In this document: piece after piece, positions 1 to 64,000 of the stretch
Position numbering within the stretch: position 1 is the first letter of the stretch
How the letters are laid out: the number at the start of each line of letters is the position of its first letter
DNA from: Eledone cirrhosa
Lineage: Eukaryota
Length of the DNA stretch: 64,000 nucleotides
Direction of reading: 5' to 3'
Assembly (NCBI GenBank): GCA_964016885.1
Contig: OZ024747.1
Location: 32,364,001-32,428,000, forward strand
Made by a program: the position numbers and the translations under genes
The notes under the pieces: generated by a model
Seen by the model: only the letters and a program-made list of their open reading frames with translations
The model's database searches: none
Told to the model about the DNA's origin: nothing

Positions 1-3000
1 TGTCTCAGACAGGGACCAGTGGCCAGTGGTCAACAGAGAGACCATCCAGAAGGACGCTGACAGGCAGATGAAATATAATGTCTCAAACAGGGACCAGTAG
101 CCAGTGGTCAATCGAAAGAACATCCAGAAGGTGGGTGACAGGCAGATGAAATATAATGTCTCAGGCAGGGAGCAGTAGCCAGTTTTCAACAGAGAGACCA
201 TCCAGAAGCTGGGTGACAGGCAGATGAAATATAATGTCTCAGACAGGGACCAGTAGCTAGTGGTCAATAGAAAGACCATCCAGTAGGTGGGTGACAGGCA
301 GATGAAATATAATGTCTCAGACAGTGACCAGTAGCCAGTGGTCAAGAGACAGACCATCCAGAAGGAGAGTGACAGGCAGATGAAATATAATGTCTCAGAC
401 ATAGAATAGAGGCCAGTGGTCAACAGAGAGACCATCCAGAAGGTGGGTGACAGGCAGAGGAAATAAAATGTCTCATACAGGGACCAGTAGCCAGTGGTCA
501 ATAGAAAGACCATCCAGAAGGTGGGTGACAGGCAGATGAAATATAATGTCTCAGACAGGGACCAGTGGCCAGTGGTCAACAGAGAGACCATCCAGAAGGT
601 GGGTGACAGGCAGATGAAATATAATGTCTCAGACAGGGACCAGTGACCAGTGGTCAATAAAGATGTCATCCAAAAGGTGGGTAACAGGCAGATGAATTAT
701 AATGTCTCAAACAGGGACCATTGGCCAGTGGTCAACAGAGAGAACATCCAGAAGGTGGTTGACAGGCAGAAGAAATATGTCTCAGACAGGGACCAGTAGC
801 CAGTGGTCAATAGAAAGACCATCCAGAAGGTGAGTGACAGGCAGATGAAATATAATGTCTCAGACAGGGACCATTAGCCAGTGGTCAACAGAGAAACCAT
901 CCAGCAGGTGGGTGACGGGCAGATGAAATATAATTTCTCAGACATGTATCAGTGTTCAGCGGTCAACAGAGAGAGCATCCAGAAGGTGGGTGACAGGCAG
1001 AGGAAATATAATGTCTCAGACAGGGATCAGTAGCCAGTGGTCAATAGAGAGACCATACAGAAGCTGGATGACTGGAAGATGAAATATAATGTCTCAGACA
1101 GCGACCAGTAGCCAGTGGTCAATAGAAAGACCATCCAGAAGGTGAGTGACAGGCAGATGAAATATAATGTCTCAGACAGGGACCATTAGCCAGTGGTCAA
1201 CAGAGAGACCATCCAGAAGGAGAGTGACAGGCAAATGAAATATAATGTCTCAGACAGGGACCAGTGGCCAGTGGTCAACAGAGATACCATCCAGAAAGAG
1301 GGTGACAGGCAGAGGAAAGATAATGTCTCAGACAGGGACCAGTAGCCAGTGGTCAACAGACAGACCATCCAGAAGGTGGGTGACAGGCAGATGAAATATA
1401 ATGTCTCAGACATGGACCAGTGGATAGTGGTCAACAGAGAGACCATCCAAAAGGTGGGTGACAGGCAGATGAAATATAATGTCTGAGACAAGGACCGGTG
1501 GCCAGTGGTCAACAGAGAGACCATCTAGAAGGAGAGTGACAGGCAGATGAAATATAATGTCTCAGACAGGGACCAGTGGCCAGTGGTCAACAGAGAGACC
1601 AGCCAGAAGGAGAGTGACAGGCAGATGAAATATAATGTCTCAGACAGGGACCAGTGGCCAGTGGTCAACAGAGATACCATCCAGAAAGAGAGTGACAGGC
1701 AGATGAAATATAATGTCTCAGGGGACAAGGACCAGTGGCCAGTGGTCAACAGAGAGGCCATCCAGAAGGTGGGTGACAGGTAGATGAAATATAATGTCTC
1801 CGACTGGGACCAGTAGCCAGTGGTCAACAGAGAGACCGTCCAGAAGGTGGATGACAGGCAGATGAAATATAATGTCTCAGACAGGGAACAGTGGCCAGTG
1901 GTCAACAGAGAGAACATCAGGAAGGTGGGTGACAGGCAGATGAAATATAACGTCTCAGACAGGGACCAGTAGACAGTGGTCAACAGAGAGACCATCCAGA
2001 AGGTGGGTGAACGGCAGATGAAACATAATGTCTCAGACAGGGAACAGTGACCAGTGGTCAATAAATATACCAACCAGATGGTGGGTGACAGGCAGAGGAA
2101 ATATACAGTCTCAGACAGCGACCAGTAGCCAGTGGTCAACAGACAGACCATCATGAAGGAGGGTGACAGGCAGATGAAATATCATGTCTCAGACAGGGAC
2201 CAGTGGCCAGTGGTCAACAGAGAGACCATCCAGGTGGGAGACAGGCAGATGAAATATAATGTCTCAGACAGGGACCAGTAGCCAGTGGTCAATAGAAAGA
2301 CCATCCAGTAGGTGGGTGACAGGCAGATGAAATATAATGTCTCAGACAGGGACCAGTAGCCAGTGGTCAACAGAGAGACCATCCAGAAGGTGGGTGACAG
2401 GCAGATGAAATATAATGTCTCCGACTGGGACCAGTAGCCAGTGGTAAACAGAGAGACCGTCCAGAAGGTGGGTGACAGGCAGATGAAATATAATGTCTCA
2501 GACAGGGAACAGTGGCCAGTGGTCAACAGAGAGACTATCAGGAAGGTGGGTGACAGGCAGATGAAATATAATGTCTCAGACAGGGACCAGTAGCCAGTGG
2601 TCAACAGAGAGACCATCCAGAAGGTGGGTGAACGGCAGATGAAACATAATGTGTCAGACAGGGAACAGTGACCAGTGGTCAATAAAGATACCAACCAGAA
2701 GGTGGGTGACAGGCAGAGGAAATATACTGTCTCAGACAGCGACCAGTAGCCAGTGGTAAACAGACAGACCATCATGAAGGTGGGTGACAGGCAGATGAAA
2801 TATGTCTCAGACAGGGACCAGTAGGCAGTGGTCAACAGAGAGACCATCCAGAAGGTGGGTGACAGGCAGATGAAATATAATGTCTCAGACAGGGACCAGT
2901 AACCAGTGGTTAATAGAGATACCATCCAGAAGGTGGGTGACATGCAGATGAAATATAATGTCTCAGGCAGGGACCAGTAGCCAGTGGTCAACAGAGAGAC

Positions 3001-32261: not shown

Positions 32262-32417
32262 ACTGTATTAGTCCTACATAAAGCTAATATAATGTAAGTA
32301 ATATTTTTAATATTCTGCTTGGTTCTGTATTATTTATTTGCAAGAGATTGAAAAAGTTGTTTTTTGTATTTTCGCTCCAAATTTACTTTGAGCAGTTATG
32401 GTACAGCAAGTTGATAT

Positions 32418-32900
32418 TTGTATATCGATACATTTCCAAGCCTGAAAAATAATGACATCCCAGCTCTGTATGGACTCCACAAGGATCATAAAATAACCAC
32501 CAATCCTGTGGTAGGATCACCAACAAGACCAGTCTGCGGAGCAAATATCACCAGCAACAACAGGATATTTTACTTCCTCTCAATGATCATACTCCCCATA
32601 ATCAAGATGTCCCCAGGCGTGTGTGAAAGAACAGAGGACCTCCTCAGCAGAGTCAACAAATGCAACCAAATCCACGACCTGGAAAACTACATGATATCGA
32701 TGTTTATTTTTCTATGGGGAAATGTGTGCAAATGACCAGCAAGAGCAATGTGATATTCCAAGGATTTGACATTGAGGAACTGGGCCTCCACCTTAGACTC
32801 AAATGTGTCAGTGAATATCTAAATGAATACAACCTTAGCTGTTCTGCCCCAGTAGACCTGTAAAAGGTAGACCTCCCATCATCACCTCAATGGCTAAAGA
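32418..32900 (+). pseudogene. Penelope-like element reverse transcriptase fragment (N-terminal RT motifs), frameshifted
   Basis: ORF 32418-32735 reads IPALYGLHKDHK...PTRPVCGA...FLSMIILPII...ERTEDLL, matching the PLE RT pattern P-x-LYGLPKxHK...PxRPIV...LxxILxP...xxTxDL. The frame is lost near the expected DVxxLYPS motif. Confidence 0.75.
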
Positions 32901-34364: not shown

Positions 34365-34865
34365 CCTATAGTTGTGTACAAGGGTAAAGGAGTTGCCCTA
34401 GATAGGGGAAACTATAGAGGCATTAAATTAATTGACCAGGTCATAAAGGTCACAGAAAAAGTAATAGCGCAACTAATCAGAGAGCGAATTGATCTAGATG
34501 AAATGCAGTTCGGGTTTGTGTCAGGTAAAAGTACCACAGACACTCTTTTCATTGTATGACAACTACAGGAGAAGTACCTAGCTAAAAGTAAACCCCTATA
34601 CTTAGCTTTCATTGACTTGGAGAAAGCCTTTACCAGAGTCCCACGCCCCATTATCTGGTGGGTTCTCAGAAAACTAGATGTTGATGAATGTCTTGTGAGA
34701 GCTATACAAGCCATGTATAAAAAACAGTCAGCAAGGTTAGAGTTAACAACGAATATAGTGAAGAGTTTAGCATAAAAGTTGGTGTTTATCAGGGCTCTGT
34801 CCTTAGCACGCTCCTATTTACTATCGCCCTCCAAGCTATAATGGAGGAGTTTCCAAACCAGCTGT
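34365..34865 (+). pseudogene. RTE-clade LINE reverse transcriptase fragment, decayed
   Basis: YKGKGVALDRGNYRGIKL...MQFGFVSGKSTTDTLFIV*QLQEKY...AFIDLEKAF...QAMY..., then a frameshifted GVYQGSVLS. It has an in-frame stop and a frameshift. Confidence 0.9.
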
Positions 34866-35432: not shown

Positions 35433-35531
35433 TTTTATTTAAGCCAATTTTTTGTCCATGCTACTCATGTTTCACACCATATAACAGTGTGAAACATGAG
35501 TAGCAAGGAAGAAAATTCACTTTAAATAAAA
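35433..35531. repeat. Short palindrome containing an inverted HHR 3' half
   Basis: tgctactcatgtttcacac-catataaca-gtgtgaaacatgagtagca (19-bp perfect stem, imperfect extension to ttttatttaa/ttaaataaaa). Both arms carry GAAAC-atga-GTA; no CTGANGA box is retained. Confidence 0.6.
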
Positions 35532-36001: not shown

Positions 36002-37465
36002 GTATTCCTGCCACCCCTATATAACTATATACCTACCACCCCTATATAACTGTATACCTACCACCCCTATATAACTATATACCTACCACCCCTATATAAC
36101 TATATACCTACCACCCCTATATAACTAAATACCTACCACCCCTATATAACTATATACCTACCACCCCTATATAACTATATACCTACCACCCCTATATAAC
36201 TATATACCTACCACCCCTATATAACTAAATACCTACCATCCCTATATAACTATATACCTACCACCCCTATATAACTATATACCTACCACCCCTATATAAC
36301 TATATACCTACCACCCCTATATAACTATATACCTACCACCCCTATATAACTAAATACCTACCATCCCTATATAACTATATACCTACCACACCTATATAAC
36401 TATATACCTACCACCCCTATATAACTATATACCTATCACCTCTATATAACTATATGGCTACCACCCCTATATAACTATATACCTACCACCCCTATATAAC
36501 TAAATACCCACCACCCCTATATAACTATATACCCACCACCCCTATATAGCTATATACCTACCACACCTATATAACTGTATACCTACCACCCCTATATAAC
36601 TAAATACCTACCCCCCCCTATATAACTATATACCTATCACCCCTATATAACTGTATACCTACCACCCCTATATAACAATATACCTACCACTCCTATATAA
36701 ATATATACCTACCACCCCTATATAACTATATACCTACCACCACTATATAACTATATACCTACCACCCCTATATAACTATATACCTACCACCCCTATATAA
36801 CTAAATACCTACCCCCCCCCTATATAACTATATACCTATCACCCCTATATAACTATATACCTACCACCCCTATATAACTATATACCTACCACACCTATAT
36901 AACTATATACCTACCACCCCTATATAACTATATACCTACCACCCCTATATAACTAAATACCTACCCCCCCTATATAACTATATACCTACCACCCCTATAT
37001 AACTAAATACCTACCACCCCTATATAACTATATACCTACCACCCCTATATAACTATATACCTACCACCCCTATATAACTAAATACCTACCACCCCTATAT
37101 AACTATATACCTACCACCCCTATATAACTATATACCTACCACATCTATATAACTATATGGCTACCACCCCTATATAACTATATACCTACCACACCTATAT
37201 AACTATATACCTACCACCCCTATATAACTATATACCTACCACCCCTATATAACTATATACCTACCACCCCTATATAACTATATACCTACCACATCTATAT
37301 AACTATATACCTACCACCCCTATATAACTATATACCTATCACCCCTATATAACTATATACCTGCCACCCCTATATAACTATATACCTGCCACACCTATAT
37401 AACTATATACCTACCATCCCTATATAACTATATACCTGCCACCCCTATATAACTGTATTCCTGCC
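36002..37465. repeat. 25-bp C-rich minisatellite
   Basis: Unit tacctaccacccctatataactata, ~58 copies, few variants. Confidence 0.97.
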
Positions 37466-37577
37466 AACTCACTATACCTACTATTTCCATACTTCTATCA
37501 ACCCAATATTCCTACTACTCCAGTATTTTTATTAATCAGATGTTTCTACGAAATAAACATTCCCCCAACCCAATATT

Positions 37578-39097
37578 CCAATATCCCTACCAGCCAAACA
37601 TACCAACCCTGTATTCCTGTAACCCCAATATCCCTACCAGCCAAACATACCAACCCTGTATTCCTGTAACCCCAATATCCCTACCAGCCAAACATACCAA
37701 CCCTGTATTCCTGTAAACCCAATATCCCTACCAGCCAAACATACCAACCCTGTATTCCTGTAAACCCAATATCCCTACCAGCCAAACATACCTCCCTGTA
37801 TTTCTGTAAACCCAATATCCCTACCAGCCAAACATACCTCCCTGTATTCCTGTAACCCCAATATGCCTACCAGCCAAACATACCTCCCTGTATTCCTGTA
37901 AACCCAATATCCCTACCAGCCAAACATACCAACCCTGTATTCCTGTAAACCCAATATCCCTACCAGCCAAACATACCAACCCTGTATTCCTGTAAACCCA
38001 ATATCCCTACCAGCCAAACATACCTCCCTGTATTTCTGTAAACCCAATATCCCTACCAGCCAAACATACCAACCCTGTATTCCTGTAACCCCAATATCCC
38101 TACCAGCCAAATATACCTCCCTGTATTCCTGTAACCCCAATATCCCTACCAGCCAAACATACCTCCCTGTATTTCTGTAAACCCAATATCCCTACCAGCC
38201 AAACATACCTCCCTGTATTCCTGTAACCCCAATATCCCTACCAGCCAAACATACCTCCCTGTATTCCTGTAAACCCAATATCCCTACCAGCCAAACATAC
38301 CAACCCTGTATTCTTGAAAACCTAATATCCCTACCAGCCAAACATACCTCCCTGTATTCCTGTAACCCCAATATCCCTACCAGCCAAACATACCAACCCT
38401 GTATTCCTGTAACCCCAATATCCCTACCAGCCAAACATACCTCCCTGTATTCCTGTAAACCCAATATCCCTACCAGCCAAACATACCAACCCTGTATTCC
38501 TGTAAACCCAATATCCCTACCAGCCAAACATACCAACCCTGTATTCCTGTAAACCTAATATCCCTACCAGCCAAACATACCTCCCTGTATTCCTGTAACC
38601 CCAATATCCCTACCAGCCAAACATACCAACCCTGTATTCCTGTAAACCCAATATCCCTACCAGCCAAACATACCAACCCTGTATTCCTGTAACCCCAATA
38701 TCCCTACCAGCCAAACATACCAACCCTGTATTCCTGTAACCCCAATATCCCTACCAGTCAAACATACCAACCCTGTATTCCTGTAACCCCAATATCCCTA
38801 CCAGTCAAACATACCAACCCTGTATTCCTGTAACCCCAATATCCCTACCAGTCAAACATACCAACTCTGTATTCATGTAACCCCAATATCCCTACCAGCC
38901 AAACATACCTCCCTGTATTCCTGTAAACCCAATATCCCTACCAGCCAAACAAACCTCCCTGTATTCCTGTAAACCCAATATCCCTACCAGCCAAACATAC
39001 CTCCCTGTATTCCTGTAACCCCAATATCCCTACCAGCCAAACATACCTCCCTGTATTCCTGTAACCCCAATATGCCTACCAGCCAAACATACCTCCC
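37578..39097. repeat. 46/47-bp C-rich minisatellite
   Basis: Unit ccaatatccctaccagccaaacatacc(aa/t)ccctgtattcctgtaa(c/a)c, ~32 copies, with two length variants interspersed. Confidence 0.97.
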
Positions 39098-39570: not shown

Positions 39571-39869
39571 CAACCTTTTCCTAGTAAAAAATACATACTG
39601 TACTCTATATGTTAATGTGTACAGCTAATGTTTCATAGTTTTATGTTTAATTATTCATAGAACACACACTCGCATGCATGTGTGTGTGTGTGTGTGTGTG
39701 TGAATGTGTGTGTATACACACAAACAAACATGCTTATTATTATTATTATTATTATCGTCCCCTGATATCAAGCGAATGACAACAACCTGAGGTCAACTCA
39801 TACTCAAAATACTTTGGTTGTTTTTTCTGAGATAGCAATACACATCCTACAAATAAAATTATTGTACAA

Positions 39870-41006
39870 CAAGCCATGTATAGGGGAGCAGTCAGCAAAG
39901 TTAGGATTGGCAATGAGTATAGCGAGGAATTTAGCGTACAGGTTGGGGTCCACCAGGGCTCTGTTCTTAGCCCTCTCCTGTTCATCATAGTCCTGCAGGC
40001 AATAACGGAGGAGTTTAAGACCGGATGCCCATGGGAACTCCTGTATGCTGATGACCTCGCACTCATAGCTGAATCTATGGTAGAACTAGAGAATAAATTC
40101 CAAACCTGGAAGCAGGGACTAGAGAGAAAGGGCCTCAAAGTCAACATGACAAAGACTAAGGTCCTTATAAGTAGACGAGAAAACAGAACCCAGATCCCCT
40201 CAGGGAAATGGCCTTGCTCAGTATGTAGGAAAGGTGTAGGTAGGAACTCCATTCTTTGCCCCAAATGCAAACAATGGGTACACAAGAGATGTAGCGGGAT
40301 CTCAGGAAGCTTAATTAAGAATGTAGGATTCACATGCAGCAGCTGTGCTGAAACAGCAAGCAAACAGCCACAGGAAACAAGTACCACCAATCTCTGGGAG
40401 GGCCCTGTAGAAACAGTAGACAGCTTCTGCTACCTAGGTGACCGAATTAGCAACGGAGGTGGGTGCTCAGAAAGTACAATAACTAGGGTAAGAACGGGAT
40501 GGAAGAAGTTTAGGGAACTACTACCACTGCTAGCTGCAAAAGGCTTCTCCCTCAGAATGAAAGGCAGACTGTATGATGCGTGTATCCGAACAGCGATGTT
40601 GCATGGTAGTGAGACCTGGGCGCTGAAGGTGGAAGACTTACGTAGATTAGAGAGAAACGAAGCCTGCATGCTCCGATGGATGTGTAACAGTAATATACGT
40701 GAACGACAAAGCATAAATGAATTGAGAGAGAGACTGAGCATAAGAGGAATCAAATGCTGCGTGCAGGAGAGGCGGTTACGCTGGTATGGACATGTGATGC
40801 GTATGAAGGATGACAGCTGCATAAAAAGGTGCAGAGCACTAGAAGTTGATGGAAACCGCGGAGTGGGGAGACCCAAGATGACTTGGGATGAGGTGATAAA
40901 AGCCGACCTTACCCAACTACACCTCTCAAAGTCAATGACACACGACCGTGACTTCTGGCGTCACGCAGTAATACAGGGTACCCGACCTCCCATGGGTACA
41001 TGCTGA
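39870..41006 (+). mobile_element. 5'-truncated RTE-clade LINE; uninterrupted 376-aa C-terminal RT ORF with an internal C4HC3 (PHD-like) finger
   Basis: GVHQGSVLSPLLF, LLYADDL, GLKVNMTKTK, FCYLGD, LHGSETW, RRLRWYGHVMR, GRPKMTWDE, DRDFW motifs. Insert CSVC...CPKC...HKRC...CSSC. Confidence 0.93.
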
Positions 41007-45600: not shown

Positions 45601-45723
45601 GGAGGTGAGTTTTATTGTAGTACAATAAAGCAATGCAGATATCGGATAAGAAGCACTCTACAGTTTGTAGGACTGGAGTATACATAATATATATGATCAA
45701 AAGATGGTTAAATGAGTTCCATG

Positions 45724-45794
45724 TATTTTATTATGCGCATTTCAAAAACAAATATCATCATGCAATAACATTTGTGTTTTCATCAGATAAAATA
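45724..45794 (-). ncRNA. Minimal type-I hammerhead ribozyme (left arm copy)
   Basis: Reverse complement of 48053-48123, identical core. Confidence 0.85.
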
Positions 45795-46149
45795 GGAGGA
45801 CATGATATGAAGGTTAAAAACACTTGTGCAGTTTTAAATCAACATATGAAAAGTTGTTTTAAATTGATGTGTGATATTGGGGGAAAAAAAAATGTTGAGG
45901 GGGGGGGGGGTGGAAAGGATGAAAAAGAAGAGGAGATGAGAGTAGAAAGTGGAAGAGGAGGAGTATAATGAGGAAGGATGAGATAGGAGGAGAGATGGAT
46001 GATAGAGAGAGAGAGATAGCTTTTATAACTGAGAAAAATATATTGTTTTACATAGAGAGGTTGAAAAACCGGTGGAAGATAATGTATAAATTAAAAGAAT
46101 TTGAAAATTAACGAAGAGAAAAATAATGTAAAGTTAAGGTTTGTATATT

Positions 46150-46318
46150 GAAGGGTTTAATAATATGTGCGATGAAAAGAAATTGTTAATATGTATTAAG
46201 AATAATATTTAAGGGTTTAATAATATGTGCGATGGAAAGAAAATGTTAATATGTATTAAGAATAATTTTAAGGGTTTAATAATATGTGCGATGGAAAGAA
46301 AATGTTGATATGTATTAT
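46150..46318. repeat. 3 x ~59-60-bp tandem repeat inside the palindrome arm (mirrored at ~47525-47695)
   Basis: aagggtttaataatatgtgcgatg(a/g)aaagaaa(t/a)tgttaatatgtattaagaataat repeated three times. Confidence 0.9.
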
Positions 46319-46727
46319 TAAAAAAACAGAGGTAATGTAAGTAAGGATATATTGTGAGATGAGCATGAATAAGTTAGATGAAAGTGAGAAAAAATAATGA
46401 ATAGAGGATGAATAATCTAACGTCAAAAAATGTTTATGTTTACGAAAGATTTTTTCAAGGTGATATAAAGTAAGAATATAGTGTATTGTGTAATAATTGT
46501 TTCTATGTTAGGCACAGTGAGAAAAGGTACAGATTAGGGGTTAGAAATTAAAAGAAAAGGAAAAGAAAAGGAAAAGGAAGAAAGGGAAGTGATGAATAGG
46601 AATGATATAGAATATGATAAATAACTTTGAAATAAGGTAGAAAGATGGGTATATTTTTAAAGAAGTATATATATATATATATATGTGCCTTTGAGAAAAG
46701 GATTCTAAATTGATAAAGTTTAGGATA

Positions 46728-47044
46728 TTAGCTGTATACTTTATGGAAAGTTCTGTGGAATTTATGCAAGCAGATAGAAAACAAGTCAGTGCGTCTGTTT
46801 ATTATAGAATCTAAATTAGATATAATGGTAAATTTTTCATTCAGACAGAGATTGCAAGTCTTGGATAGAGAACTGTTCAAGCAGAGGAAACCTTTTTCCA
46901 AGAGATGTTATATTTAATATTTTTGTCTTTCAAGGACCATATGAGTTCTGAGAGAGTCATGTTGGTTCTTTTAAGTTTATATTTAAAAGACGAATGATGA
47001 TTATAAAGACGAGCTTTAAAGGAGGTGGAAGTGTAGCCAAAATA
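46728..47044 (-). pseudogene. PLE GIY-YIG endonuclease C-terminal fragment (not in ORF track)
   Basis: YFGYTSTSFKARLYNHHSSFKYKLKRTNMTLSELIWSLKDKNIKYNISWKKVSSA* then, after a frameshift, SKTCNLCLNEKFTIISNLDSIINRRTDLFSICLHKFHRTFHKVYS*. Matches the PLE pattern YIG.T...FK.R..NH..SF...LS..IW.LK...I.W...C.LCL.EK..I...LN.R.E....C.H. Confidence 0.88.
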
Positions 47045-47130
47045 ATGCTTGCATAAATTCCACAGAACTTTCCATAAAGTATACAGCTAATATCCTAAAC
47101 TTTATCAATTCAGAATCCTTTTCTCAAAGG

Positions 47131-47179
<49 letters not shown>

Positions 47180-48052
47180 TTCTTTAAAAATATACCCATC
47201 TTTCTACCTTATTTCAAAGTTATTTATCATATTCTATATCATTCCTATTCATCACTTCCCTTTCTTCCTTTTCCTTTTCTTTTCTTTTTCTTTTAATTTC
47301 TAACCCCTAATCTGTACCTTTTCTCACTGTGTCTAACATAGAAACAATTATTACACAATACACTATATTCTTACTTTATATCACCTTGAAAAAATCCTTC
47401 GTAAACATAAAGATTTTTTGACGTTAGATTATTCATTCTCTATTCATTATTTTTTTCTCACTTTCATCTAACTTATTCATGCTCATCTCACAATATATCC
47501 TTACTTACATTACTTCTGTTTTTTTAATAATACATATCAACATTTTCTTTCCATCGCACATATTATTAAACCCTTAAAATTATTCTTAATACATATTAAC
47601 ATTTTCTTTCCATCGCACATATTATTAAACCCTTAAATATTATTCTTAATACATATTAACAATTTCTTTTCATCGCACATATTATTAAACCCTTCAATAT
47701 ACAAACCTTAACTTTACATTATTTTTCTCTTCGTTAATTTTCAACTTCTTTTAATTTATACATTATCTTCCAACGGTTTTTCAACCTCTCTATGTAAAAC
47801 AATATATTTTTCTCAGTTATAAAAGCTATCTCTCTCTCTCTATCATCCATCTCTCCTCCTATCTCATCCTTCCTCATTATACTCCTCCCCTTCCACTTTT
47901 TACTCTCATCTCCTCCTCTTTTTCATCCTTTCCACCCCGCCCTCAACATGTTTTTCCCCCCAATATCACACATCAATTTAAAACAACTTTTCATATGTTG
48001 ATTTAAAACTGCACTATCCACAAGTGTTTTTAACCTTCATATCATGTCCTCC

Positions 48053-48123
48053 TATTTTATCTGATGAAAACACAAATGTTATTGCATGATGATATTTGTT
48101 TTTGAAATGCGCATAATAAAATA
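48053..48123 (+). ncRNA. Minimal type-I hammerhead ribozyme (right arm copy)
   Basis: Stem I tattttat/ataaaata (8 bp), CTGATGA, stem II aaacacaaatgtta/tgatatttgtttt, GAAA, self-complementary stem III tgcgca, cleavage triplet aUA. Confidence 0.85.
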
Positions 48124-48151
48124 CATGGAACTCATTTAACCATCTTTTGAT

Positions 48152-48219
<68 letters not shown>

Positions 48220-48821
48220 AAAGTAAGTCCATAGAATCATTTGATAAAATATATACAGTAATTCTTCTCCCAATCAGCATAATCAACCACATAAAAAATC
48301 AATTAAACGAGGCTATAAGTTTAAAATGTACCTATGAAGAAACAATAGATAAATAAATGATAGCTATTTTATCCGCGAGCCACAGCCACAGAAGATTTAC
48401 CTAGTATTTCTAATAGCCTGTAGAAATTGACTAGACATATAGGTAACCATACATAATTAGGTACAAAATCAAAGTTAGAAGAAAAAATGGACATAAACAT
48501 ACCAAAAACATGTTTCTACCCCCGAGGGTTTCATTCGCTTTTTGGAAATATCCGATGGTGGATAAATCAACGAGTTTCTAAATCATCAGGAAACAAACTC
48601 AATTGGACGTAGATTTTCCTTAAATGATCCCCGCCAGAAACTAATTCAAAATGGCTAAGAATTGTCACATGGCCAGTGGTCAAGTCAGAAAGCTTGTGAT
48701 TGGTACCTGACGGCGAGTAGGCTGGTTGCTAGAAAGTGCAGCCGAATACTGCCTAAAGTTTTACTCAACCTTACGGGAGTATATAAAATATATAGGTTTA
48801 CATATACATAAACTAGACAGA

Positions 48822-48878
<57 letters not shown>

Positions 48879-48944
48879 CGTTATTGCGGGTTGAGTCGGG
48901 GGTAACCACAGTAAGTAAGGTACTCAATACATTGCAGAGTATAA

Positions 48945-49074
48945 AAGTTTTAATATAGATGAGATTCTACGGGACTAGAACTGTTTCATTCTTTAGAAAT
49001 CATCAGGAATCCCTGATGATTTCTAAAGAATGAAACAGTTCTAGTCCTGTAGAATCTCATCTATATTAAAACTT
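48945..49074. ncRNA. 130-bp palindrome of two back-to-back hammerhead motifs
   Basis: 63-bp arms (1 mismatch) and a 4-nt loop. Each strand reads c-CTGATGA-tttct-aa-agaa-t-GAAAC-agttcta-GTC outward from the centre. Confidence 0.8.
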
Positions 49075-49173
49075 ATATATTATATATATATATATATATA
49101 AATGTTTTTGGCAACCATTCACGGTGTGGCTCAATGACGAATTAATATTAATTAAATAATCAACAATCAGAGC

Positions 49174-49247
<74 letters not shown>

Positions 49248-49415
49248 GGAAACATTTGAACAGGAACAAAACAGAGAGGCAGTACAACGAATGTTTATTA
49301 ATTTCACGCTATATATATATATATAGTAATATTAATAAATGTGAAGACTAAAATCCAAAGAGGGTTCGATAAGGATAAATATATCAAATATATAAGAACC
49401 CTAGAGCAAATATTT

Positions 49416-49523
49416 ATTAAAATAAAATATTAAAGTTTAACCAAAGAATCGCTGCTTTCACCCTTAAAGGGGTCTTCATGAAAGCACCGATTCTTTGCTT
49501 AAACTTTAATCTGCTATTTTAAT
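49416..49523. ncRNA. Palindrome with hammerhead motif on the minus strand
   Basis: Arms attaaagtttaaccaaagaatcgctgctttca / tgaaagcaccgattctttgcttaaactttaat. Minus strand reads (a)TGAAGA-cccc-tttaa-ggg-t-GAAAG-cagcgattc. Confidence 0.6.
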
Positions 49524-50955: not shown

Positions 50956-52193
50956 TTACAGAACTTCTTGGTACAAAATGTTTGTGGTTTTACCGTTTAG
51001 AGCAAATGCATAAAGGTTTCTTTTGCTTCCCACTCTGGAATATTCAACGTATAGCTGACCGTGCGAAAAGCATGGCTCTTCTAGGTTTATTCTAGCGACG
51101 GACAATGTTTTCCCCTGAGACTTATCGTCATAGCGAAATTACAACGAACTGGAAACTGGAGCCTCCTAAATGAAAAGGGGATCTCTGATGTTGACGGACA
51201 AAGAGGAATCCTTGGGATAAAAACATTTTCCCCCTTTCCACATCCCGAGAGAATCGTCACCTCAATCAAGTTTTGCGTTAGTTTATTTACTGTAAGGCGG
51301 GCGCCGTTGCAGAGTTTTGGTGGGTGTAGATTTCTCAAAAGCATAATTGAGCATCCTTGCTTAAGTTCCAATCGATGAGATGGCAACCCGGAGGGGTTCA
51401 ATGAGTTAAGAAACTCAATTGGGTAGTTAATGGGGTCTGTGACTGTATCGATGGACTTGTATATACACGAAGCTGTAGGAAGAGACTTAAGCAGTTGTCC
51501 GTTGATTTTGTCGACAATCTCATTTTTCGGAGCCAGTATTGCCTTTTCGCACAGCCAGTTTGGATTTTGGTAGTTAGCGCTCAACTCAGGGAATACTGCA
51601 TCAGCCAAGTCGTCAGCACTGTTGACTAAAGTGCAGACCGGTTCGAGGGAGATTTTTTCCTCTTCATCAAGTGGCACTTTGCCGTTACCAAGTGTCAATA
51701 GGTTGGTAGCAAAATCTGATGACACTTGGTCACCAAGCGTCCGAGCTCTCATGTTCGTAGAGAGCGTTAATGTTGTGACATAACGCCAAAGCGGAGATGA
51801 CTTTAAGCATGCTCAAATAGCATCAGCCCTTGTTCCTTTGGGAATAACATGGACGGTTTGTCTAAAATCTCCGGATAAAAGGACAGTCACGCCTCCCATG
51901 GGATCCTGGGAGTCTCTTATGTCTCTTAACGTCCGGTCCAGTGTCTCCAAAGCTCCTTCATGAGCCATGGTACATTCGTCCCAAACTATAAGTTCTGCCT
52001 TTTCTGATCCTTTGGTAATATTACAGCAGGGTGTGTCATTTGGTGTCATATTGAGGGGGAGTTTGAAGGCTGAATGTGCTGTCCTTCCCCCAGGGAGCAA
52101 GGTTGCTGCAATACTGGAAGACGCAACTGCAAGTGCTATGTGTCTGTGTTGTCGAACCTTCGCAAGGAGAAGCCGTGTGACAAAAGTCTTCCC
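50956..52193 (-). pseudogene. Helitron PIF1-family (SF1B) helicase domain, one in-frame stop and one frameshift
   Basis: GKTF (Walker A, cut by a (CA)n tract), AVASSSIAATLLPGGRTAHSAFKLPL, IVWDECTM, GDFRQT, AI*ACLKSS, NMR, AILAPKN, IMLLRNL...LCNG, FIPRI, RLQFPV..FAMTI / KSQGKTL...FSHGQLYV..SRV...NILYQEVL*. Confidence 0.93.
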
Positions 52194-54345: not shown

Positions 54346-54458
<113 letters not shown>

Positions 54459-54519
54459 GTAGAACACTGGAAGGTAATATTCCTAGTGGTAGAGCACTCA
54501 GTCCATGGGACAAGTTTGG

Positions 54520-54645
54520 TAGAAGTAGTAACACAACAGTTAGTTCACCATACCGAGAACAATTGTTTCACCTTATGTGGATCTTCAGCTGAAGATCCGC
54601 AATTGTTCTCGGTATGGTGAACTAACTGTTGTATTACTACTTCTA
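54520..54645. ncRNA. 126-bp palindrome with one complete (minus) and one internally deleted (plus) hammerhead motif
   Basis: Centre ggatcttcag|ctgaagatcc. Minus strand CTGAAGA-tcc-acataa-gg-t-GAAAC-aatt-GTTC. The plus arm lacks the stem II 3' side and GAAA. Confidence 0.75.
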
Positions 54646-54717
<72 letters not shown>

Positions 54718-54720
<3 letters not shown>

Positions 54721-55413
54721 AAGTATGTATACGTACATACATATATGTATACGGACATACAGTAGTATGTATATACATACATACATGCACACATATATAT
54801 GTACGTATGGGTTTACCGAACATTTATTATAATGCTCGGTTTGTTTGTAAACAAACAGCCCGAATTAAGCCGCACAGTGTTCGGCAACCATCGTTGCCAT
54901 TTTGTTCAACACTGACAAAGGAACGATGAACTAGTTTCTAGCTTATTAGCTGTCATCACCACCGTATACCTTCCTGTCAGTCTATTGAACGTTTGAAAGT
55001 ATATACTTTCCTTATGCATATGTACATATATATATGTGCATGTATGTATGTATAAACACACTACTGTACGTCTGTATACATATATGTATGTACGTATACA
55101 TACTTATATTTAAAAATGAAACGAAATTTCATTTCTCACTCTTAGTACGGCTGTTACTTAAATATAAGTATGTATACGTACATACATATATGTATACAGA
55201 CGTACAGTAGTACGTATATATATATACATACATGCACACATATATATATGTACGTATGGATTCACCGAATATTTATTATAATATTCGGTGTGTTTGTAAA
55301 CAAACATCCCGAATTAAGCCGTACAGTGTCTAGCAACCATCGTTGCTCATTTGTTCAACACTGACAATGGAATGCTGTACTAGTTTCAAGCTTATTAGCT
55401 ATCATCACCAACG
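54718..55413 (-). repeat. Two ~250-bp direct repeats, each starting with an HHR-like motif, with a partial inverted copy between them
   Basis: 54718-54965 and 55166-55413 are homologous. Minus strand (g)TGATGA-cagct-aata-agct-a-GAAAC-ta-GTTC and (g)TGATGA-tagct-aata-agct-t-GAAAC-ta-GTA. 55020-55113 is the inverse of 55158-55253. Confidence 0.65.
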
Positions 55414-56625: not shown

Positions 56626-59600
56626 GTATTACTGTAGAAAATATATAGTATAGTATTACTGTTGAAAATATATAGTATAGTATTACTGTTGGAAATATAT
56701 AGTATAGTATTACTGTTGGAAATATATAGTACAGTAATACTGTTGGAAATATATAGTACAGTATTACTGTTGAAAATAGATAGTATAGTATTACTGTTAA
56801 AAATATATAGTATAGTATTACTGTTGAAAATATATAGTATAGTATAGTATTATGGTTGAAAATATATAGTACAGTATTACAGTTGAAAATATATAGTATA
56901 GTGTAACTGTTGAAAATATATAGTATAGTATTACTGTTGAAAACATAGTATAGTATTAGTGTTGGAAATATATAATATAGTATTACTGTTGAAAATATAT
57001 AGTATAGTATTACTGTTGGAAATATATAGTATAGTATTACTGTTGAAAATATATAGTACAGTATTACTGTTGAAAATATATGGTATAGTATTACTGTTGA
57101 AAACATAGTATAGTATTACTATTGAAAATATATAGTACAGTATTACTGTTGAAAAATATATAATATAGTATTACTGTTGGAAATATATAGTATAGTATTA
57201 CTGTTGAAAATATATAGTACAGTATTAGTGTTGAAAATATATAGTACAGTATTACTGTTGAAAATATATAGTACAGTATTACTGTTGAAAATATATAGTA
57301 CAGTATTACTGTTGAAAATATATAGTATAGTATTACTGCTGAAAATATATAGTATAGTATAGTATTACTGTTGGAAATATATAGTATAGTATTACTGTTG
57401 GAAATATATATTACAGTATTACTGTTGAAAATATATAGTATAGTATTACTGTTGAAAATATATAGTATAGTATTACTGTTGAAAATATATAGTATAGTAT
57501 TACTGTTGAAAACATATAGTATAGTATTACTGTTGAAAATATATAGTATAGTATTACTGTTGAAAATATATAGTATAGTATTACTGTTGGAAATATATAG
57601 TATAATATTACTGTTGGAAATATATAGTACAGTATTACTGTTGGAAATATATAGTACAGTATTACTGTTGAAAATATATAGTATAGTATTACTGTTGAAA
57701 ATATATAGTATAGTATTACTGTTGAAAATATATAGTATAGTATTACTGTTGAAAATATATAGTATAGTATTACTGTTGAAAATATATAGTATAGTATTAC
57801 TGTTGAAAATATATAGTATAGTATAGAATTATGGTTGAAAATATATAGTACAGTATTACTGTTGAAAATATATAGTATAGTGTAACTGTTGAAAATATAT
57901 AGTATAGTATTACTGTTGAAAACATAGTATAGTATTACTGTTGGAAATATATAGTATTACTGTTGAAAATATATGCTATAGTATTACTGTTGAAAATATA
58001 TATTATAGTATATTACTACTGTTGAAAATATAAAGTATAGTATTACAGTTGAAAGTATATAGTATAGTATTACTGTTGAAAATATATAGTATAGTATAGT
58101 ATTATCGTTGAAAATATATAGTACAGTATTACTGTTGAAAATATATAGTATAGTATTACTGTTGAAAATATATAGTATAGTATTACTGTTGGAAATATAT
58201 AGTACAGTATTACTGTTGAAAATATATAGTATAGTATTACTGTTGGAAATATATATTACAGTATTACTGTTGAAAATATATAGTATAGTATTACTGTTGA
58301 AAATATATAGTATAGTATTACTGTTGAAAATATATAGTATAGTATTACTGTTGAAAACATATAGTATAGTATTACTGTTGAAAATATATAGTATAGTATT
58401 ACTGTTGAAAATATATAGTATAGTATTACTGTTGAAGACATAGTATAGTATTACTGTTGGAAATATATAGTATTACTGTTAAAAATATATGCTATAGTAT
58501 TACTGTTGAATATATATAGTATAGTATTACTGTTGGAAATATATAGTATAGTATTACTGTTTAAAATATATAGTACAGTATTACTGTTGAAAATATATGG
58601 TGTAGTATTACTGTTGAAAACATAGTATAGTATTACTGTTCAAAATATACAGTACAGTATTACCGTTGAAAATATATAGTATAGTATTACTGTTGAAAAC
58701 ATAATATAGTATTACTGTTGAAAATATATAGTACAGTATTACTGTTGAAAACATATAGTATAGTATTACTGTTAAAAATATATAGTATAGTATTACTGTT
58801 GAAAATATATAGTATAGTACTACTGTTGAAAATATATAGTATAGTATAGTACAACTGTTGAAAATATATAGTATAGTATTACAGTTGAAAGTATATAGTA
58901 TAGTATTACTGTTGAAAATATATAGTATAGTATAGTATTATCGTTGAAAATATATAGTACAGTATTACTGTTGAAAATATATAGTATAGTATTACTGTTG
59001 AAAATATATAGTATAGTATTACTGTTGGAAATATATAGTACAGTATTACTGTTGAAAATATATAGTATAGTATTACTGTTGGAAATATATATTACAGTAT
59101 TACTGTTGAAAATATATAGTATAGTATTACTGTTGAAAATATATAGTATAGTATTACTGGTGAAAATATATAGTATAGTATTACTGTTGAAAACATATAG
59201 TATAGTATTACTGTTGAAAATATATAGTATAGTATTACTGTTGAAAATATATAGTATAGTATTACTGTTGGAAATATATAGTAAAGTATTACTGTTGGAA
59301 ATATATAGTACAGTATTACTGTTGGAAATATATAGTACAGTATTACTGTTGAAAATATATAGTATAGTATTACTGTTGAAAATATATAGTATAGTATTAC
59401 TGTTGAAAATATATAGTATAGAATTACTGTTGAAAATATATAGTATAGTATTACTGTTGAAAATATATAGTATAGTATTACTGTTGGAAATATATAGTAT
59501 AGTATTACTGTTGGAAATATGTAGTACAGTATTACTGTTGGAAATATATAGTACAGTATTACTGTTGAAAATATATAGTATAGTATTACTGTTGAAAATA

Positions 59601-62600
59601 TATAGTATAGTATTACTGCTGAAAATATATAGTATAGTATTACTGTTGAAAATATATAGTATAGTATAGTATTATGGTTGAAAATATATAGTACAGTATT
59701 ACTGTTGAAAATATATAGTATAGTATTACTGTTGAAAACATAGTATAGTATTACTGTTGGAAATATATAGTATTACTGTTGAAAATATATGCTATAGTAT
59801 TACTGTTGAAAATATATAGTATAGTATTACTGTTGGAAATATATAGTATAGTATTACTGTTTAAAATATATAGTACAGTATTACTGTTGAAAATATATGG
59901 TGTAGTATTACTGTTGAAAACATAGTATAGTATTACTGTTCAAAATATACAGTACAGTTTTACCGTTGAAAATATATAGTATAGTATTACTGTTGAAAAC
60001 ATAATATAGTATTACTGTTGAAAATATATAGTACAGTATTACTGTTGAAAACATATAGTATAGTATTACTGTTAAAAATATATAGTATAGTATTACTGTT
60101 GAAAATATATAGTATAGTACTACTGTTGAAAATATATAGTATAGTATAGTACTACTGTTGAAAATATATAGTATAGTATTACAGTTGAAAGTATATAGTA
60201 TAGTATTACTGTTGAAAATATATAGTATAGTATAGTATTATCGTTGAAAATATATAGTACAGTACTACTGTTGAAAATATATAGTATAGTATTACTGTTG
60301 TAAATATATAGTATAGTATTACTGTTGGAAATATATAGTACAGTATTACTGTTGAAAATATATAGTATAGTATTACTGTTGGAAATATATATTACAGTAT
60401 TACTGTTGAAAATATATAGTATAGTATTACTGTTGAAAATATATAGTATAGTATTACTGTTGAAAATATATAGTATAGTATTACTGTTGAAATCATATAG
60501 TATAGTATTACTGTTGAAAATATATAGTATAGTATTACTGTTGAAAATATATAGTATAGTATTACTGTTGGAAATATATAGTAAAGTATTACTGTTGGAA
60601 ATATATAGTACACTATTACTGTTGGAAATATATAGTACAGTATTACTGTTGAAAATATATAGTATAGTATTACTGTTGAAAATATATAGTATAGTATTAC
60701 TGTTGAAAATATATAGTATAGTATTACTGTTGAAAATATATAGTATAGTATTACTGTTGAAAATATATAGTATAGTATAGTATTATGGTTGAAAATATAT
60801 AGTACAGTATTACTGTTGAAAATATATAGTATAGTGTAACTGTTGAAAATATATAGTATAGTATTACTGTTGAAAACATAGTATAGTATTACTGTTGGAA
60901 ATATATGCTATAGTATTACTGTTGAAAATATATAGTATAGTATTACTGTTGGAAATATATAGTATAGTATTACTGTTTAAAATATATAGTACAGTATTAC
61001 TGTTGAAAATATATGGTGTAGTATTACTGTTGAAAACATAGTATAGTATTACTGTTCAAAATATACAGTACAGTATTACCGTTGAAAATATAGAGTATAG
61101 TATTACTGTTGAAAACATAATATAGTATTACTGTTGAAAATATATAGTACAGTATTACTGTTGAAAACATATAGTATAGTATTACTGTTAAAAATATATA
61201 GTATAGTATTACTGTTGAAAATATATAGTATAGTACTACTGTTGAAAATATATAGTATAGTATAGTACTACTGTTGAAAATATATAGTATAGTATTACAG
61301 TTGAAAGTATATAGTATAGTATTACTGTTGATAATATATAGTATAGTATAGTATTATGGTTGAAAATATATAGTACAGTATTACTGTTGAAAATATATAG
61401 TATAGTATTACTGTTGAAAATATATAGTATAGTATTACTGTTGGAAATATATAGTACAGTATTACTGTTGAAAATATATAGTATAGTATTACTGTTGAAA
61501 ATATATAGTACAGTATTACTGTTGGAAATATATAGTATTACTGTTGAAAACATATAGTATAGTATTACTGTTGAAAATATATAGTATAGTATTACTGTTG
61601 AAAATGTATAGTATAGTATTACTGTTGAAAATATATAGTATAGTATTACTATTGAAAATATATAGTACAGTATTACTGTTGAAAATATATAGTACAGTAT
61701 TACTGTTGGAAATATATAGTACAGTATTAATGTTGAAAATATATAGTATAGTATTACTGTTGAAAATATATAGTATAGTATTACTGTTGAAAATATATAG
61801 TATAGTATTACTATTGGAAATATATAGTACAGTATTACTGTTTGAAATATATAATACTGTATTGTTGTTGAAAATATATAGTATGGTATTACTGTTGAAA
61901 ATATATAGTATAGTATAGTATACGGTTGAAAATATATAGTACAGTATTACTGTTGAAAATATATAGTATAGTGTAACTGTTGAAAATATATAGTATAGTA
62001 TTACTGTTGAGAACATAGTATAGTATTACTGTTGAAAATATATAGTATAGTATTACTGTTGAAAATATATAGTATAGTATTACTGTCGAAAACATAATAT
62101 AGTATTACTGTTGAAAATATATAGTATAGTATTACTGTTGAAAAAAAAATATAGTATTACTGTTGAAAATATATAGTATAGTGTAACTGTTGAAAATATA
62201 TAGTATAGTATTACTGTTGAAAATATATAGTATAGTATTACTGTTGAAAATATATAGTATAGTATAGTATTATCGTTGAAAATATATAGTACAGTATTAC
62301 TGTTGAAAATATATAGTATATTATTACTGTTGAAAATATATAGTATAGTATTACTTGTGGAAATATATAGTACAGTATTACTGTTGAAAATATATAGTAT
62401 AGTATTACTGTTGGAAATATATATTACAGTATTACTGTTGAAAATATATAGTATAGTATTACTGTTGAAAATATATAATATAGTATTACTGTTGAAAATA
62501 TATAGTATAGTATTACTGTTGAAAACATATAGTATAGTATTACTGTTGAAAATATATAGTATAGTATTACTGTTGAAAATATATAGTATAGTATTACTGT

Positions 62601-64000
62601 TGGAAATATATAGTAAAGTGTTACTGTTGGAAATATATAGTACAGTATTACTGTTGGAAATATATAGTACAGTATTACTGTTGAAAATATATAGTATAGT
62701 ATTACTGTTGAAAAATATAGTATAGTATTACTGTTGAAAATATATAGTATAGTATTACTGTTGAAAATATATAGTATAGTATTACTGTTGAAAATATATA
62801 GTATAGTATTACTGTTGAAAATATATAGTATAGTATTACTGTTGGAAATATGTAGTATAGTATTACTGTTGGAAATATATAGTACAGTATTACTGTTGGA
62901 AATATATAGTACAGTATTACTGTTGAAAATATATAGTATAGTATTACTGTTGAAAATATATAGTATAGTATTACTGTTGAAAATATATAGTATAGTATTA
63001 CTGTTGAAAATATATAGTATAGTATTACTGTTGAAAATATATAGTATAGTATTACTGTTGAAAATATATAGTATAGTATAGTATTACTGTTGAAAACATA
63101 GTATAGTATTACTGTTGGAAATATATAGTATTACTGTTGAAAATATATGCTATAGTCTTACTGTTGAAAATATATAGTATAGTATTACTGTTGGAAATAT
63201 ATAGTATAGTATTACTGTTTAAAATATATAGTACAGTATTACTGTTGAAAATATATGGTGTAGTATTACTGTTGAAAACATAGTATAGTATTACTGTTCA
63301 AAATATACAGTACAGTATTACCATTGAAAATATATAGTATAGTATTACTGTTGAAAACATAATAGAGTATTACTGTTGAAAATATATAGTACAGTATTAC
63401 TGTTGAAAACATATAGTATAGTATTACTGTTAAAAATATATAGTATAGTATTACTGTTGAAAATATATAGTATAGTACTACTGTTCAAAATATACAGTAC
63501 AGTATTACCATTGAAAATATATAGTATAGTATTACTGTTGAAAATATATAGTATAGTATTACTGTTGGAAATATATAGTACAGTATTACTGTTGAAAATA
63601 TATAGTATAGTATTACTGTTGGAAATATATATTACAGTATTACTGTTGAAAATATATAGTATTGTATTACTGTTGAAAATATATAGTATAGTATTTCTGT
63701 TGAAAATATATAGTATAGTATTACTGTTGAAATCATATAGTATAGTATTACTGTTGAAAATATATAGTATAGTATTACTGTTGAAAATATATAGTATAGT
63801 ATTACTGTTGGAAATATATAGTAAAGTATTACTGTTGGAAATATATAGTACAGTATTACTGTTGGAAATATATAGTACAGTATTACTGTTGAAAATATAT
63901 AGTATAGTATTACTGTTGAAAATATATAGTATAGTATTACTGTTGAAAATATATAGTATAGTATTACTGTTGAAAATATATAGTATAGTATTACTGTTGA
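56626..64000. repeat. 27-bp AT-rich satellite (runs off the window end)
   Basis: Unit gtattactgttgaaaatatatagtata with 22, 25 and 32-bp variants. The LLLKIYSIV ORFs are its periodic translation. Confidence 0.98.

What the first reader, a model, noticed from the sequence alone, without database searches (positions are those of the whole stretch)
48945..49074. Miniature double-hammerhead palindrome: possibly the smallest member of a (TA)n-associated foldback family
Seen: 63-bp arms with one mismatch. The axis lies just upstream of CTGATGA, so both strands encode the same HHR core reading outward towards TA-rich flanks. The same geometry recurs with unrelated sequences at 35433-35531, 49416-49523 and 54520-54645, and at large scale at 45695-48152. 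Inference: at least five independent insertions share the rule 'invert at the 5' truncation point, end in TA-rich DNA'. This suggests either a stereotyped PLE integration intermediate (snap-back or two-ended priming near the ribozyme) or a class of non-autonomous palindromic ribozyme mini-elements. I cannot tell from this window whether this has already been described in this taxon.
Basis: partly seen in the sequence, partly recalled or inferred. Interest (0 to 1): 0.7.

Follow-up and report, generated by a model that had tools for sequence, protein, structure and literature searches.

The report
Penelope run-off palindromes at transcript start
This mirror-image stretch is one of about 2,700-3,000 tiny insertions of a Penelope-type jumping gene, each likely made anew when two DNA copies ran off the probably capped front end of the element's RNA and were joined head to head, which would explain how these elements build their inverted ends.

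Summary
The palindrome is real (63-bp arms, one mismatch), but the insertion is 196 bp (48879-49074): one arm carries a 66-bp tail. It is the hammerhead end of an autonomous Hydra-clade Penelope-like element (intact RT/GIY-YIG frame found). About 2,700-3,000 loci have their axis within 30 nt 5' of the core, against 7 at a control site ~90 nt upstream and 38 around the ribozyme cut site. Junctions differ (31 types in 57 loci), so they are made anew, not copied from a master. 52 of 57 have one long and one short arm. In 46 of 57 the farther arm stops 5-7 nt before the core, 30 nt below a TATA box; untemplated G precedes this end in 30 of 69 non-inverted copies (control 1 of 20). Best reading: two cDNAs primed on both target strands run off the capped RNA 5' end and join. 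Not a ribozyme mini-element class; cleavage and the start site are untested. Inverted pLTR, one-sided tail and (TA)n targeting are published. The scan noted twin-primed Penelope palindromes often on other DNA.

The parts
48879..49074 (.). Whole insertion: head-to-head pair of 5'-truncated pLTR copies of a Hydra-clade PLE (family 1)
48879..48944 (-). One-sided tail of the long arm, ending at the distal fixed end (about +128 from the core C); inferred distal RT start site
48945..49007 (-). Left arm (long arm, sense on minus strand)
49008..49011 (.). Loop AATC; junction reads as GATTC plus two extra bases (GG on the sense strand) joined to the other arm at CAGG; the axis lies at the predicted transcription start
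49012..49074 (+). Right arm (short arm), ending at the proximal fixed end (about +61); inferred proximal RT start site
48961..49013 (-). Type I hammerhead motif, stem I intact, stem III with one mismatch; predicted cut GUA between 48968 and 48967; activity untested
49013..49058 (+). Second hammerhead core, 5' strand of stem I lost at the junction
48825..48878 (.). (TA)n target, left
49075..49101 (.). (TA)n target, right
49326..49523 (.). Family 3 mini palindrome with tail on the left; family core reads CAGAAGA; 27,424 pattern matches in the genome
54456..54645 (.). Family 2 mini palindrome with tail on the left, axis directly before CTGAAGA, stem II missing in one arm; 1,006 pattern matches
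45687..48160 (.). Long inverted insertion of another Hydra-type PLE; centre encodes the end of the GIY-YIG domain

Best explanation
The palindrome is a minimal insertion of an autonomous Hydra-clade Penelope-like retrotransposon, likely made when two reverse transcriptases primed on the two cut strands of a TA repeat, copied the element RNA from two fixed sites and ran off its probably capped 5' end, after which the two cDNA ends were likely joined head to head. Shown: parent element, two fixed outer ends (+48 to +67 and about +128), one long plus one short arm, axis clustered at -5/-6, varied junctions, excess of untemplated G. Inferred: that -6/-5 is the transcription start (TATA 30 nt upstream, initiator-like CCAGATT; consensus motifs recalled), that the G copies the cap, that both cDNAs come from one RNA, and that joining uses 1-3 nt microhomology (extra CC onto CAGG) or end joining. 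The hammerhead is a passenger: it lies between start site and RT start sites, and read-through RNA would bury it in a 63-bp hairpin. The minis carry no promoter and are likely dead products; the templates are likely the 5' pLTR of full transcripts or short transcripts from the many promoter-bearing 3' ends.
For: Parent: L061 has the same hammerhead-tail at both ends of a 712-codon open frame with RWR, DKT, YRDD, CxCx5C, YIG, CxxC and CxH motifs, the features listed for Hydra PLEs. Axis clustering: 2,709 + 2,700 strand matches within 30 nt of the core against 7 + 7 at the CCAAT anchor and 38 + 38 within 20 nt of the cut site. In 57 palindromic loci the farther arm is templated to -5, -6 or -7 in 46, stops short in 9 and goes beyond in 2. 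TATA to A(-6) spacing is 30 nt in 55 of 62 promoter-side copies, 32-33 in 6, 37 in 1. Non-inverted copies: 784 strand matches at this end against 23 at the control; G directly before the templated end in 30 of 69 loci against 1 of 20 (hand count of the listed rows; Fisher p = 0.001). An extra G from the cap is reported for full-length L1 insertions (PMC11702581, passage). Family 3 shows the same G in 14 of 66 loci, where neither template, target nor stem I fold-back supplies G (hand count). Two cDNAs rather than one: 52 of 57 long+short; where one arm alone keeps GATTC it is the short one in 16 of 30; both arms reach -5 or beyond in 18 of 57, six leaving a 1-nt loop. One RNA or locus: subfamily letter equal in both arms in 57 of 57, two private variants mirrored. 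In vitro, a Poseidon PLE cuts and extends both strands, starts at two internal sites and uses uncleaved RNA (PMC11167929, parts 1-2 of 4 read).
Against: No RNA 5'-end data: the start site and cap are predictions. Of 30 inspected copies that continue into the leader or ORF (of 85 matches), 17 have the promoter upstream in tandem and only 4 begin between -9 and +3 (my reading), so full-length copies rarely end at the predicted start; this needs a template jump or longer RNAs. The same site reads as a 3' splice acceptor (T-rich tract, YAG) in all three families, and the D. virilis Penelope intron ends at helix I. 10 of the 20 G-AGATTC ends read TG and could come from fold-back of the cDNA onto its own stem I. 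The family 3 G excess is not significant against the small control (p = 0.17). Family 2 axes are spread over 0-45 nt. Arm concordance could also reflect subfamilies active at different times, or arm-to-arm conversion. Neither Pfam nor PDB matched the protein and no tree was built. Target duplications cannot be read in (TA)n.
Confidence: 0.62

Rival explanations
1. Twin priming as above, but the stop at -6/-5 is set by a 3' splice site (bound splicing factors or a processing step at the AG), not by the capped start.
For: All three families read YAG at this point after a pyrimidine-rich stretch; a GTGAGT donor-like site lies 95 nt after the stop codon; the D. virilis intron ends at helix I (PMC4209133).
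Against: Ends fall inside or before the AG (-5: 34 arms, -6: 17) rather than after it (-4: 7 of 114 arms); no spliced junction in any fetched locus; no constant upstream exon in the 69 solo junctions; TATA spacing is held at 30-33 nt across subfamilies; untemplated G is not predicted.
Confidence: 0.15
2. One cDNA (or an antisense RNA) folds back on itself and self-primes the second arm, as proposed for Adineta Penelope palindromes.
For: The commonest junctions are neat 2-3 bp fold-backs with 3-5 nt loops; aborted fold-backs (CAG or TCAGG before GATTC/AGATTC) occur in 6 of 69 solos; arms always share subfamily letters; published proposal (PMC3846280, passages).
Against: A copy of the first cDNA cannot be longer than it, yet the arm that keeps the RNA 5' end is the short one in 16 of 30 cases; 18 of 57 junctions have both arms reaching -5 or beyond, some with a 1-nt loop; both outer ends are fixed and differ.
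Confidence: 0.12
3. A non-autonomous palindromic ribozyme mini-element that copies itself as a unit.
For: The window's exact 130-bp palindrome has at least 40 copies at 96-100% identity.
Against: That junction is only 1 of 57 in the position-ordered set, which holds 31 types; it occurs in both orientations relative to the tail (20 long-intact, 6 short-intact) on shared tail haplotypes; no promoter; sizes grade into 0.3-8 kb inverted insertions; the hairpin would block the ribozyme fold.
Confidence: 0.06
4. The axis is set by hammerhead self-cleavage.
For: Motif and cut triplet are conserved in thousands of copies; 3 of 38 short palindromes have an arm starting exactly at the cut site (my reading).
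Against: Cleavage would leave 5' ends at +39 and remove the core; such products are 38 loci against about 2,700-3,000.
Confidence: 0.02

Closest known systems
Hydra clade of C-terminal EN+ Penelope-like elements (Craig et al. 2021, PMC8557442; section 11, passages and supplement rows seen), including Hydra-1_Obim
   Same: Single ORF with RW(K/R), DKT, CxCx5C linker, CxxC and CxH motifs; hammerhead in the pLTR; insertion into (TA)n; inverted 5'-truncated copy and a tail at one end only.
   Different: A different family from Hydra-1_Obim (its listed hammerhead differs; three short motifs of ours had 0 hits in the supplement). Tail ~66-75 nt rather than 30-40. Unit ~5.9 kb with a microsatellite-rich 3' region. 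The paper does not describe, in what I read, minimal palindromes as a main product or an axis at the start site.
Adineta vaga Penelope insertions with inverted pLTRs and junction palindromes (Arkhipova et al. 2013, PMC3846280; passages)
   Same: Head-to-head inverted pLTRs, palindromes at the junction, optional tail, TATA and Inr-like motifs in the pLTR.
   Different: Explained there by self-priming on an antisense template; the junction statistics here favour two sense-RNA cDNAs. There the palindromes flank ORF-bearing copies; here most carry no ORF.
Anolis Poseidon element PAc in vitro (Frangieh et al. 2024, PMC11167929; parts 1-2 of 4)
   Same: Two internal RT start sites that define the tail, both target strands cut and extended, AT-rich target, hammerhead cleavage not needed.
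   Different: Other clade; joining of the two cDNAs and 5' run-off were not addressed in the parts read.
Paired opposite-strand minimal hammerheads in metazoan genomes (Cervera and de la Pena 2014, PMC4209133; parts 1-2 of 4)
   Same: Dual hammerheads 100-700 bp apart on opposite strands, read as truncated PLEs.
   Different: Here the cores are 0-30 nt apart, stem III is 4 bp with an 8-nt loop, and the junctions are resolved base by base.
LINE-1 twin priming and cap-derived extra G (PMC11702581; passages)
   Same: Second RT primed from the reciprocal target end; extra G at full-length 5' junctions.
   Different: L1 twin priming inverts adjacent, non-overlapping parts; here both cDNAs would copy the same RNA stretch, giving an inverted duplication.
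Non-LTR retrozymes (PMC7229834, search listing; 10.64898/2026.07.22.740005, part 1 of 5)
   Same: Non-coding, hammerhead-bearing, PLE-linked.
   Different: Retrozymes are direct tandem units thought to move through cleaved or circular RNA; these are single inverted pairs whose ends do not follow the cut site.

Membership tests
EN+ Penelope-like elements | Single ORF with RT and C-terminal GIY-YIG endonuclease between pLTRs | tested here: met
   712-codon frame with D, YRDD and YIG/RxxxH motifs between two hammerhead-tail copies; by motif reading, Pfam gave no hit
EN+ Penelope-like elements | Partial tandem and inverted pLTR arrangement with tail at one end | tested here: met
   17 of 30 leader-bearing copies in partial tandem; 52 of 57 palindromes long+short
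Hydra clade | RWK-like, DKT, CxCx5C, CxxC, CxH motifs; no GxKF/Y; no CX2-5CxxC | tested here: met
   against the list (RWR in place of RWK)
Hydra clade | Insertion into (TA)n | tested here: met
Hydra clade | Phylogenetic placement of the RT | not tested
Hydra clade | Short unit (generally under 3 kb) | tested here: not met
   cores 5,966 bp apart in L061; the excess is a microsatellite-rich 3' region; a typical rather than defining trait
Type I hammerhead ribozyme | CUGANGA and GAAA core, three stems, NUH site | tested here: inconclusive
   all present in the family pLTR (stem I 6 bp, stem III 4 bp, GUA) but stem II is weak, the fold is not the predicted minimum, Rfam gave no hammerhead hit at E <= 1; each window strand has one broken stem
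Type I hammerhead ribozyme | Self-cleavage | not testable with these tools
   needs in vitro transcription
Non-LTR retrozyme | Direct tandem units each with a hammerhead | tested here: not met
   single head-to-head pair
MITE / foldback DNA element | Symmetric ends and uniform internal junction across copies | tested here: not met
   asymmetric ends, 31 junction types in 57 loci

The most novel reading that the evidence does not exclude
The mini palindromes are captured 'strong-stop' cDNAs: PLE reverse transcription starts at two sites near the capped 5' end, on both target strands at once, and normally jumps to a downstream pLTR copy to rebuild the promoter, as retroviruses rebuild their LTR; when both cDNAs fail to jump they are joined into a palindrome. 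Thousands of junctions then map the start site, the cap and the RT's untemplated additions for each family, and replace the published antisense self-priming model.
Probability: 0.35. Interest if true: 0.68.

Novelty: new variant of a known kind. Interest (0 to 1): 0.45.

Why it matters
How Penelope-like elements make their inverted ends and regain their promoter is stated as open in the papers read (PMC8557442, PMC3846280, PMC11167929). These junctions give thousands of natural products with base-level rules (two fixed starts, one long plus one short arm, stop at -6/-5, extra G) that an existing in vitro system could test directly. They also warn annotators that such repeats, easily filed as MITEs, SINEs or ribozyme elements, are PLE by-products, and they are a plentiful source of perfect ~60-bp hairpins in this genome.

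Tried and rejected
Rfam scan of the window: no hammerhead family at E <= 1, only microsatellite-driven miRNA matches. Pfam on 4 proteins: no hit for the two Hydra-type frames or the window fragment at 32415; one RT hit for another PLE in L064. PDB sequence search: nothing significant. Sequencing runs: no RNA holder listed. Loop 'flipping' as rolling-hairpin replication: dropped once junction diversity was seen. Spliced copies: none in the fetched loci. Trans-spliced leader: no constant upstream sequence. Empty versus filled sites: no related genome is held. Earlier findings by sequence: none. Not in print, as far as ten searches reach: no listed paper combined Penelope with strong-stop, or pLTR with untemplated bases; two listings held 'Penelope-like' and 'twin priming' and were not opened. 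The library lacks most subscription papers (Arkhipova 2006, Evgen'ev and Arkhipova 2005 not seen); supplements other than that of PMC8557442 were not examined and may bear on novelty. PMC13282606 (part 1 of 3) and PMC2377424 (passages) added nothing on these palindromes.

Full report
Observation. The sequence holds a palindrome with 63-bp arms (48945-49007, 49012-49074), one mismatch and the loop AATC; CTGATGA...GAAA reads outward on both strands. As RNA it folds into one hairpin of -102.5 kcal/mol, z = -24.5. Copies elsewhere show that the insertion is larger: one arm continues for 66 more bases (48879-48944) before the TA run. On the minus strand stem I can pair but stem III has a mismatch; on the plus strand stem I is broken. 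Rfam found no hammerhead at E <= 1.

Family and parent. The genome (3.0 Gb, 1,796 contigs; likely an octopod, an inference from repeat content and from the scan's notes) has 13,416 exact matches to the 32-nt core. Locus L061 holds two cores 5,966 bp apart on one strand, with a 712-codon frame starting shortly after the tail. The window's long arm matches that pLTR at 127 of 135 bases. The protein shows RWR, DKT, YRDD, CxCx5C, YIG, CxxC and CxH and lacks GxKF/Y and CX2-5CxxC, the features given for the Hydra clade, which inserts into (TA)n (PMC8557442 section 11). This is motif reading: Pfam and PDB gave no hit and I built no tree. Only 85 exact matches continue past the tail into the leader, so ORF-bearing 5' ends are rare against short ends.

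Axis position. A pattern for head-to-head cores up to 30 nt apart gave 2,709 + 2,700 strand matches; the 100 listed rows are 55 loci, so about 2,700-3,000 loci. The same test at the CCAAT box ~90 nt upstream gave 7 + 7, around the predicted cut site 38 + 38, of which 3 have an arm starting exactly at the cut (my reading). I fetched the listed loci and analysed 57 palindromes (L031-L156; 30 further loci chosen by likeness to the window were kept apart): the farther arm is templated to -5 in 19, -6 in 16, -7 in 11 (where the other arm can supply the C), stops short in 9 and runs beyond in 2. In promoter-bearing copies a TATA(A/T)ATA begins 30 nt before the A at -6 in 55 of 62, 32-33 nt in 6, 37 in 1, and that A sits in CCAGATT, like the initiator consensus (recalled, from no call). 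Non-inverted copies joined straight to (TA)n also pile up here: 784 strand matches against 23 at the control. By hand count of the listed rows, a G that is in neither template nor target precedes the templated end in 30 of 69 loci, against 1 of 20 (p = 0.001). An extra G from the cap is reported for full-length L1 insertions (PMC11702581, passage). Caveat: 10 of the 20 G-AGATTC ends read TG and could arise by fold-back onto stem I. Family 3 (window 49326-49523; 27,424 matches) helps: fold-back there predicts A (12 of 66) but G also occurs in 14 of 66, though not significantly against the small control (p = 0.17). Family 2 (54456-54645; 1,006 matches) has a looser axis, 0-45 nt, with some G-AGTCCGAG ends and no TATA at that distance.

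Two cDNAs. Outer ends fall at two places, +48 to +67 and about +128, and 52 of 57 palindromes have one of each; longer inverted insertions of 0.3-8 kb follow the same rule in the pairs inspected. Where only one arm keeps GATTC it is the short arm in 16 of 30; a fold-back copy of a short cDNA cannot give a longer arm. In 18 of 57 both arms reach -5 or beyond, and six share a junction with a 1-nt loop. Both arms carry the same subfamily letter in 57 of 57 and two private variants are mirrored; arms differ at 32 of 3,569 positions in 83 palindromes, so the family is young. In vitro, the Anolis element cuts and extends both strands, starts at two internal sites that define its tail, and does not need ribozyme cleavage (PMC11167929).

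Not a self-copying mini element. The window's exact junction has at least 40 near-identical copies, but is 1 of 57 in the position-ordered set, which has 31 junction types, and it occurs in both orientations relative to the tail (20 and 6) on shared haplotypes. The minis lack the promoter.

Results against my reading. No RNA data place the start site. Of 30 leader-bearing copies inspected, 17 have the promoter upstream in tandem and only 4 begin between -9 and +3, so long copies need a template jump or longer RNAs. The stop site also reads as a splice acceptor in all three families, and the D. virilis intron ends at helix I; no spliced copy was found. Short aborted fold-backs exist (6 of 69 solos), so self-priming occurs at least briefly.

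45695-48152 is an inverted insertion of another Hydra-type element with its axis inside the endonuclease frame. 35433-35531 has no core and no second copy at 2 mismatches.

What is known. Inverted 5'-truncated pLTRs, a tail at one end and (TA)n targeting are published; junction palindromes were ascribed to self-priming on antisense RNA; opposite-strand hammerhead pairs were noted as truncated PLEs. In ten searches I found no paper that ties the axis to the start site and cap or applies twin priming to PLEs; the library is incomplete. The scan itself has 556 findings with these words in at least 48 genomes; several follow-ups reached twin priming, run-off, Hydra membership or a capped RNA. I had stated twin priming and the start-site reading before looking; the Hydra assignment came from my motif reading, and the notes gave the name Hydra-1_Obim, which I checked.

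Verdict. A real, abundant by-product of a known element class, with junction evidence that favours twin priming and run-off at a predicted capped start. New variant of a known kind; interest 0.45.

Noticed in passing
window 1-31387 and 56626-64000: Two satellite arrays: 78-bp unit x 403 and 27-bp unit x 272; smaller arrays of 25 and 47 bp at 36003-39097.
   Followed up: no
L061, between stop codon and promoter: The element carries ~3.3 kb of TA/TG microsatellite-rich sequence, opened by a GTGAGT donor-like site 95 nt after the stop and closed by the T-rich/CAG site before the hammerhead; a possible retained intron that contains the promoter.
   Followed up: partly
family 3, e.g. L219-L248 and window 49326-49523: Its hammerhead-like core reads CAGAAGA instead of CUGANGA and the cut triplet would be CUU, in a family of over 27,000 matches; activity unknown.
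   Followed up: no
window 45786 (-), 48061 (+), 55618 (-); many loci: Two further high-copy hammerhead-like motifs with a long stem II and an unclear stem III; one ends the L079-type Hydra element (799-aa frame, 37% identical to L061).
   Followed up: partly
rows, e.g. G000:C1:339177116-339177146: Six solos carry GAG or GAGAG before AGATTC, as if the RT recopied the first bases of the RNA, reminiscent of telomerase-like repeat addition.
   Followed up: no
L061 pLTR, about +55 to +135: Two predicted hairpins lie in the tail, the second ending near the distal fixed end; candidate RT positioning signals.
   Followed up: partly
window 48480-48589: A diverged single copy of a related hammerhead end (CTGATGATTTAGAAA) on the minus strand, 400 bp left of the finding.
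   Followed up: no
window 32415-32735, 34412-34840, 39831-41006, 51087-52193: Fragments that look like a PLE RT, RTE-type LINE RT (two) and a Helitron/PIF1 helicase; labels from my reading of the translations.
   Followed up: no
window 55061-55210 and 54695-54812: Further TA/TG-rich fold-backs of an unrelated repeat that give spurious miRNA matches in Rfam.
   Followed up: no
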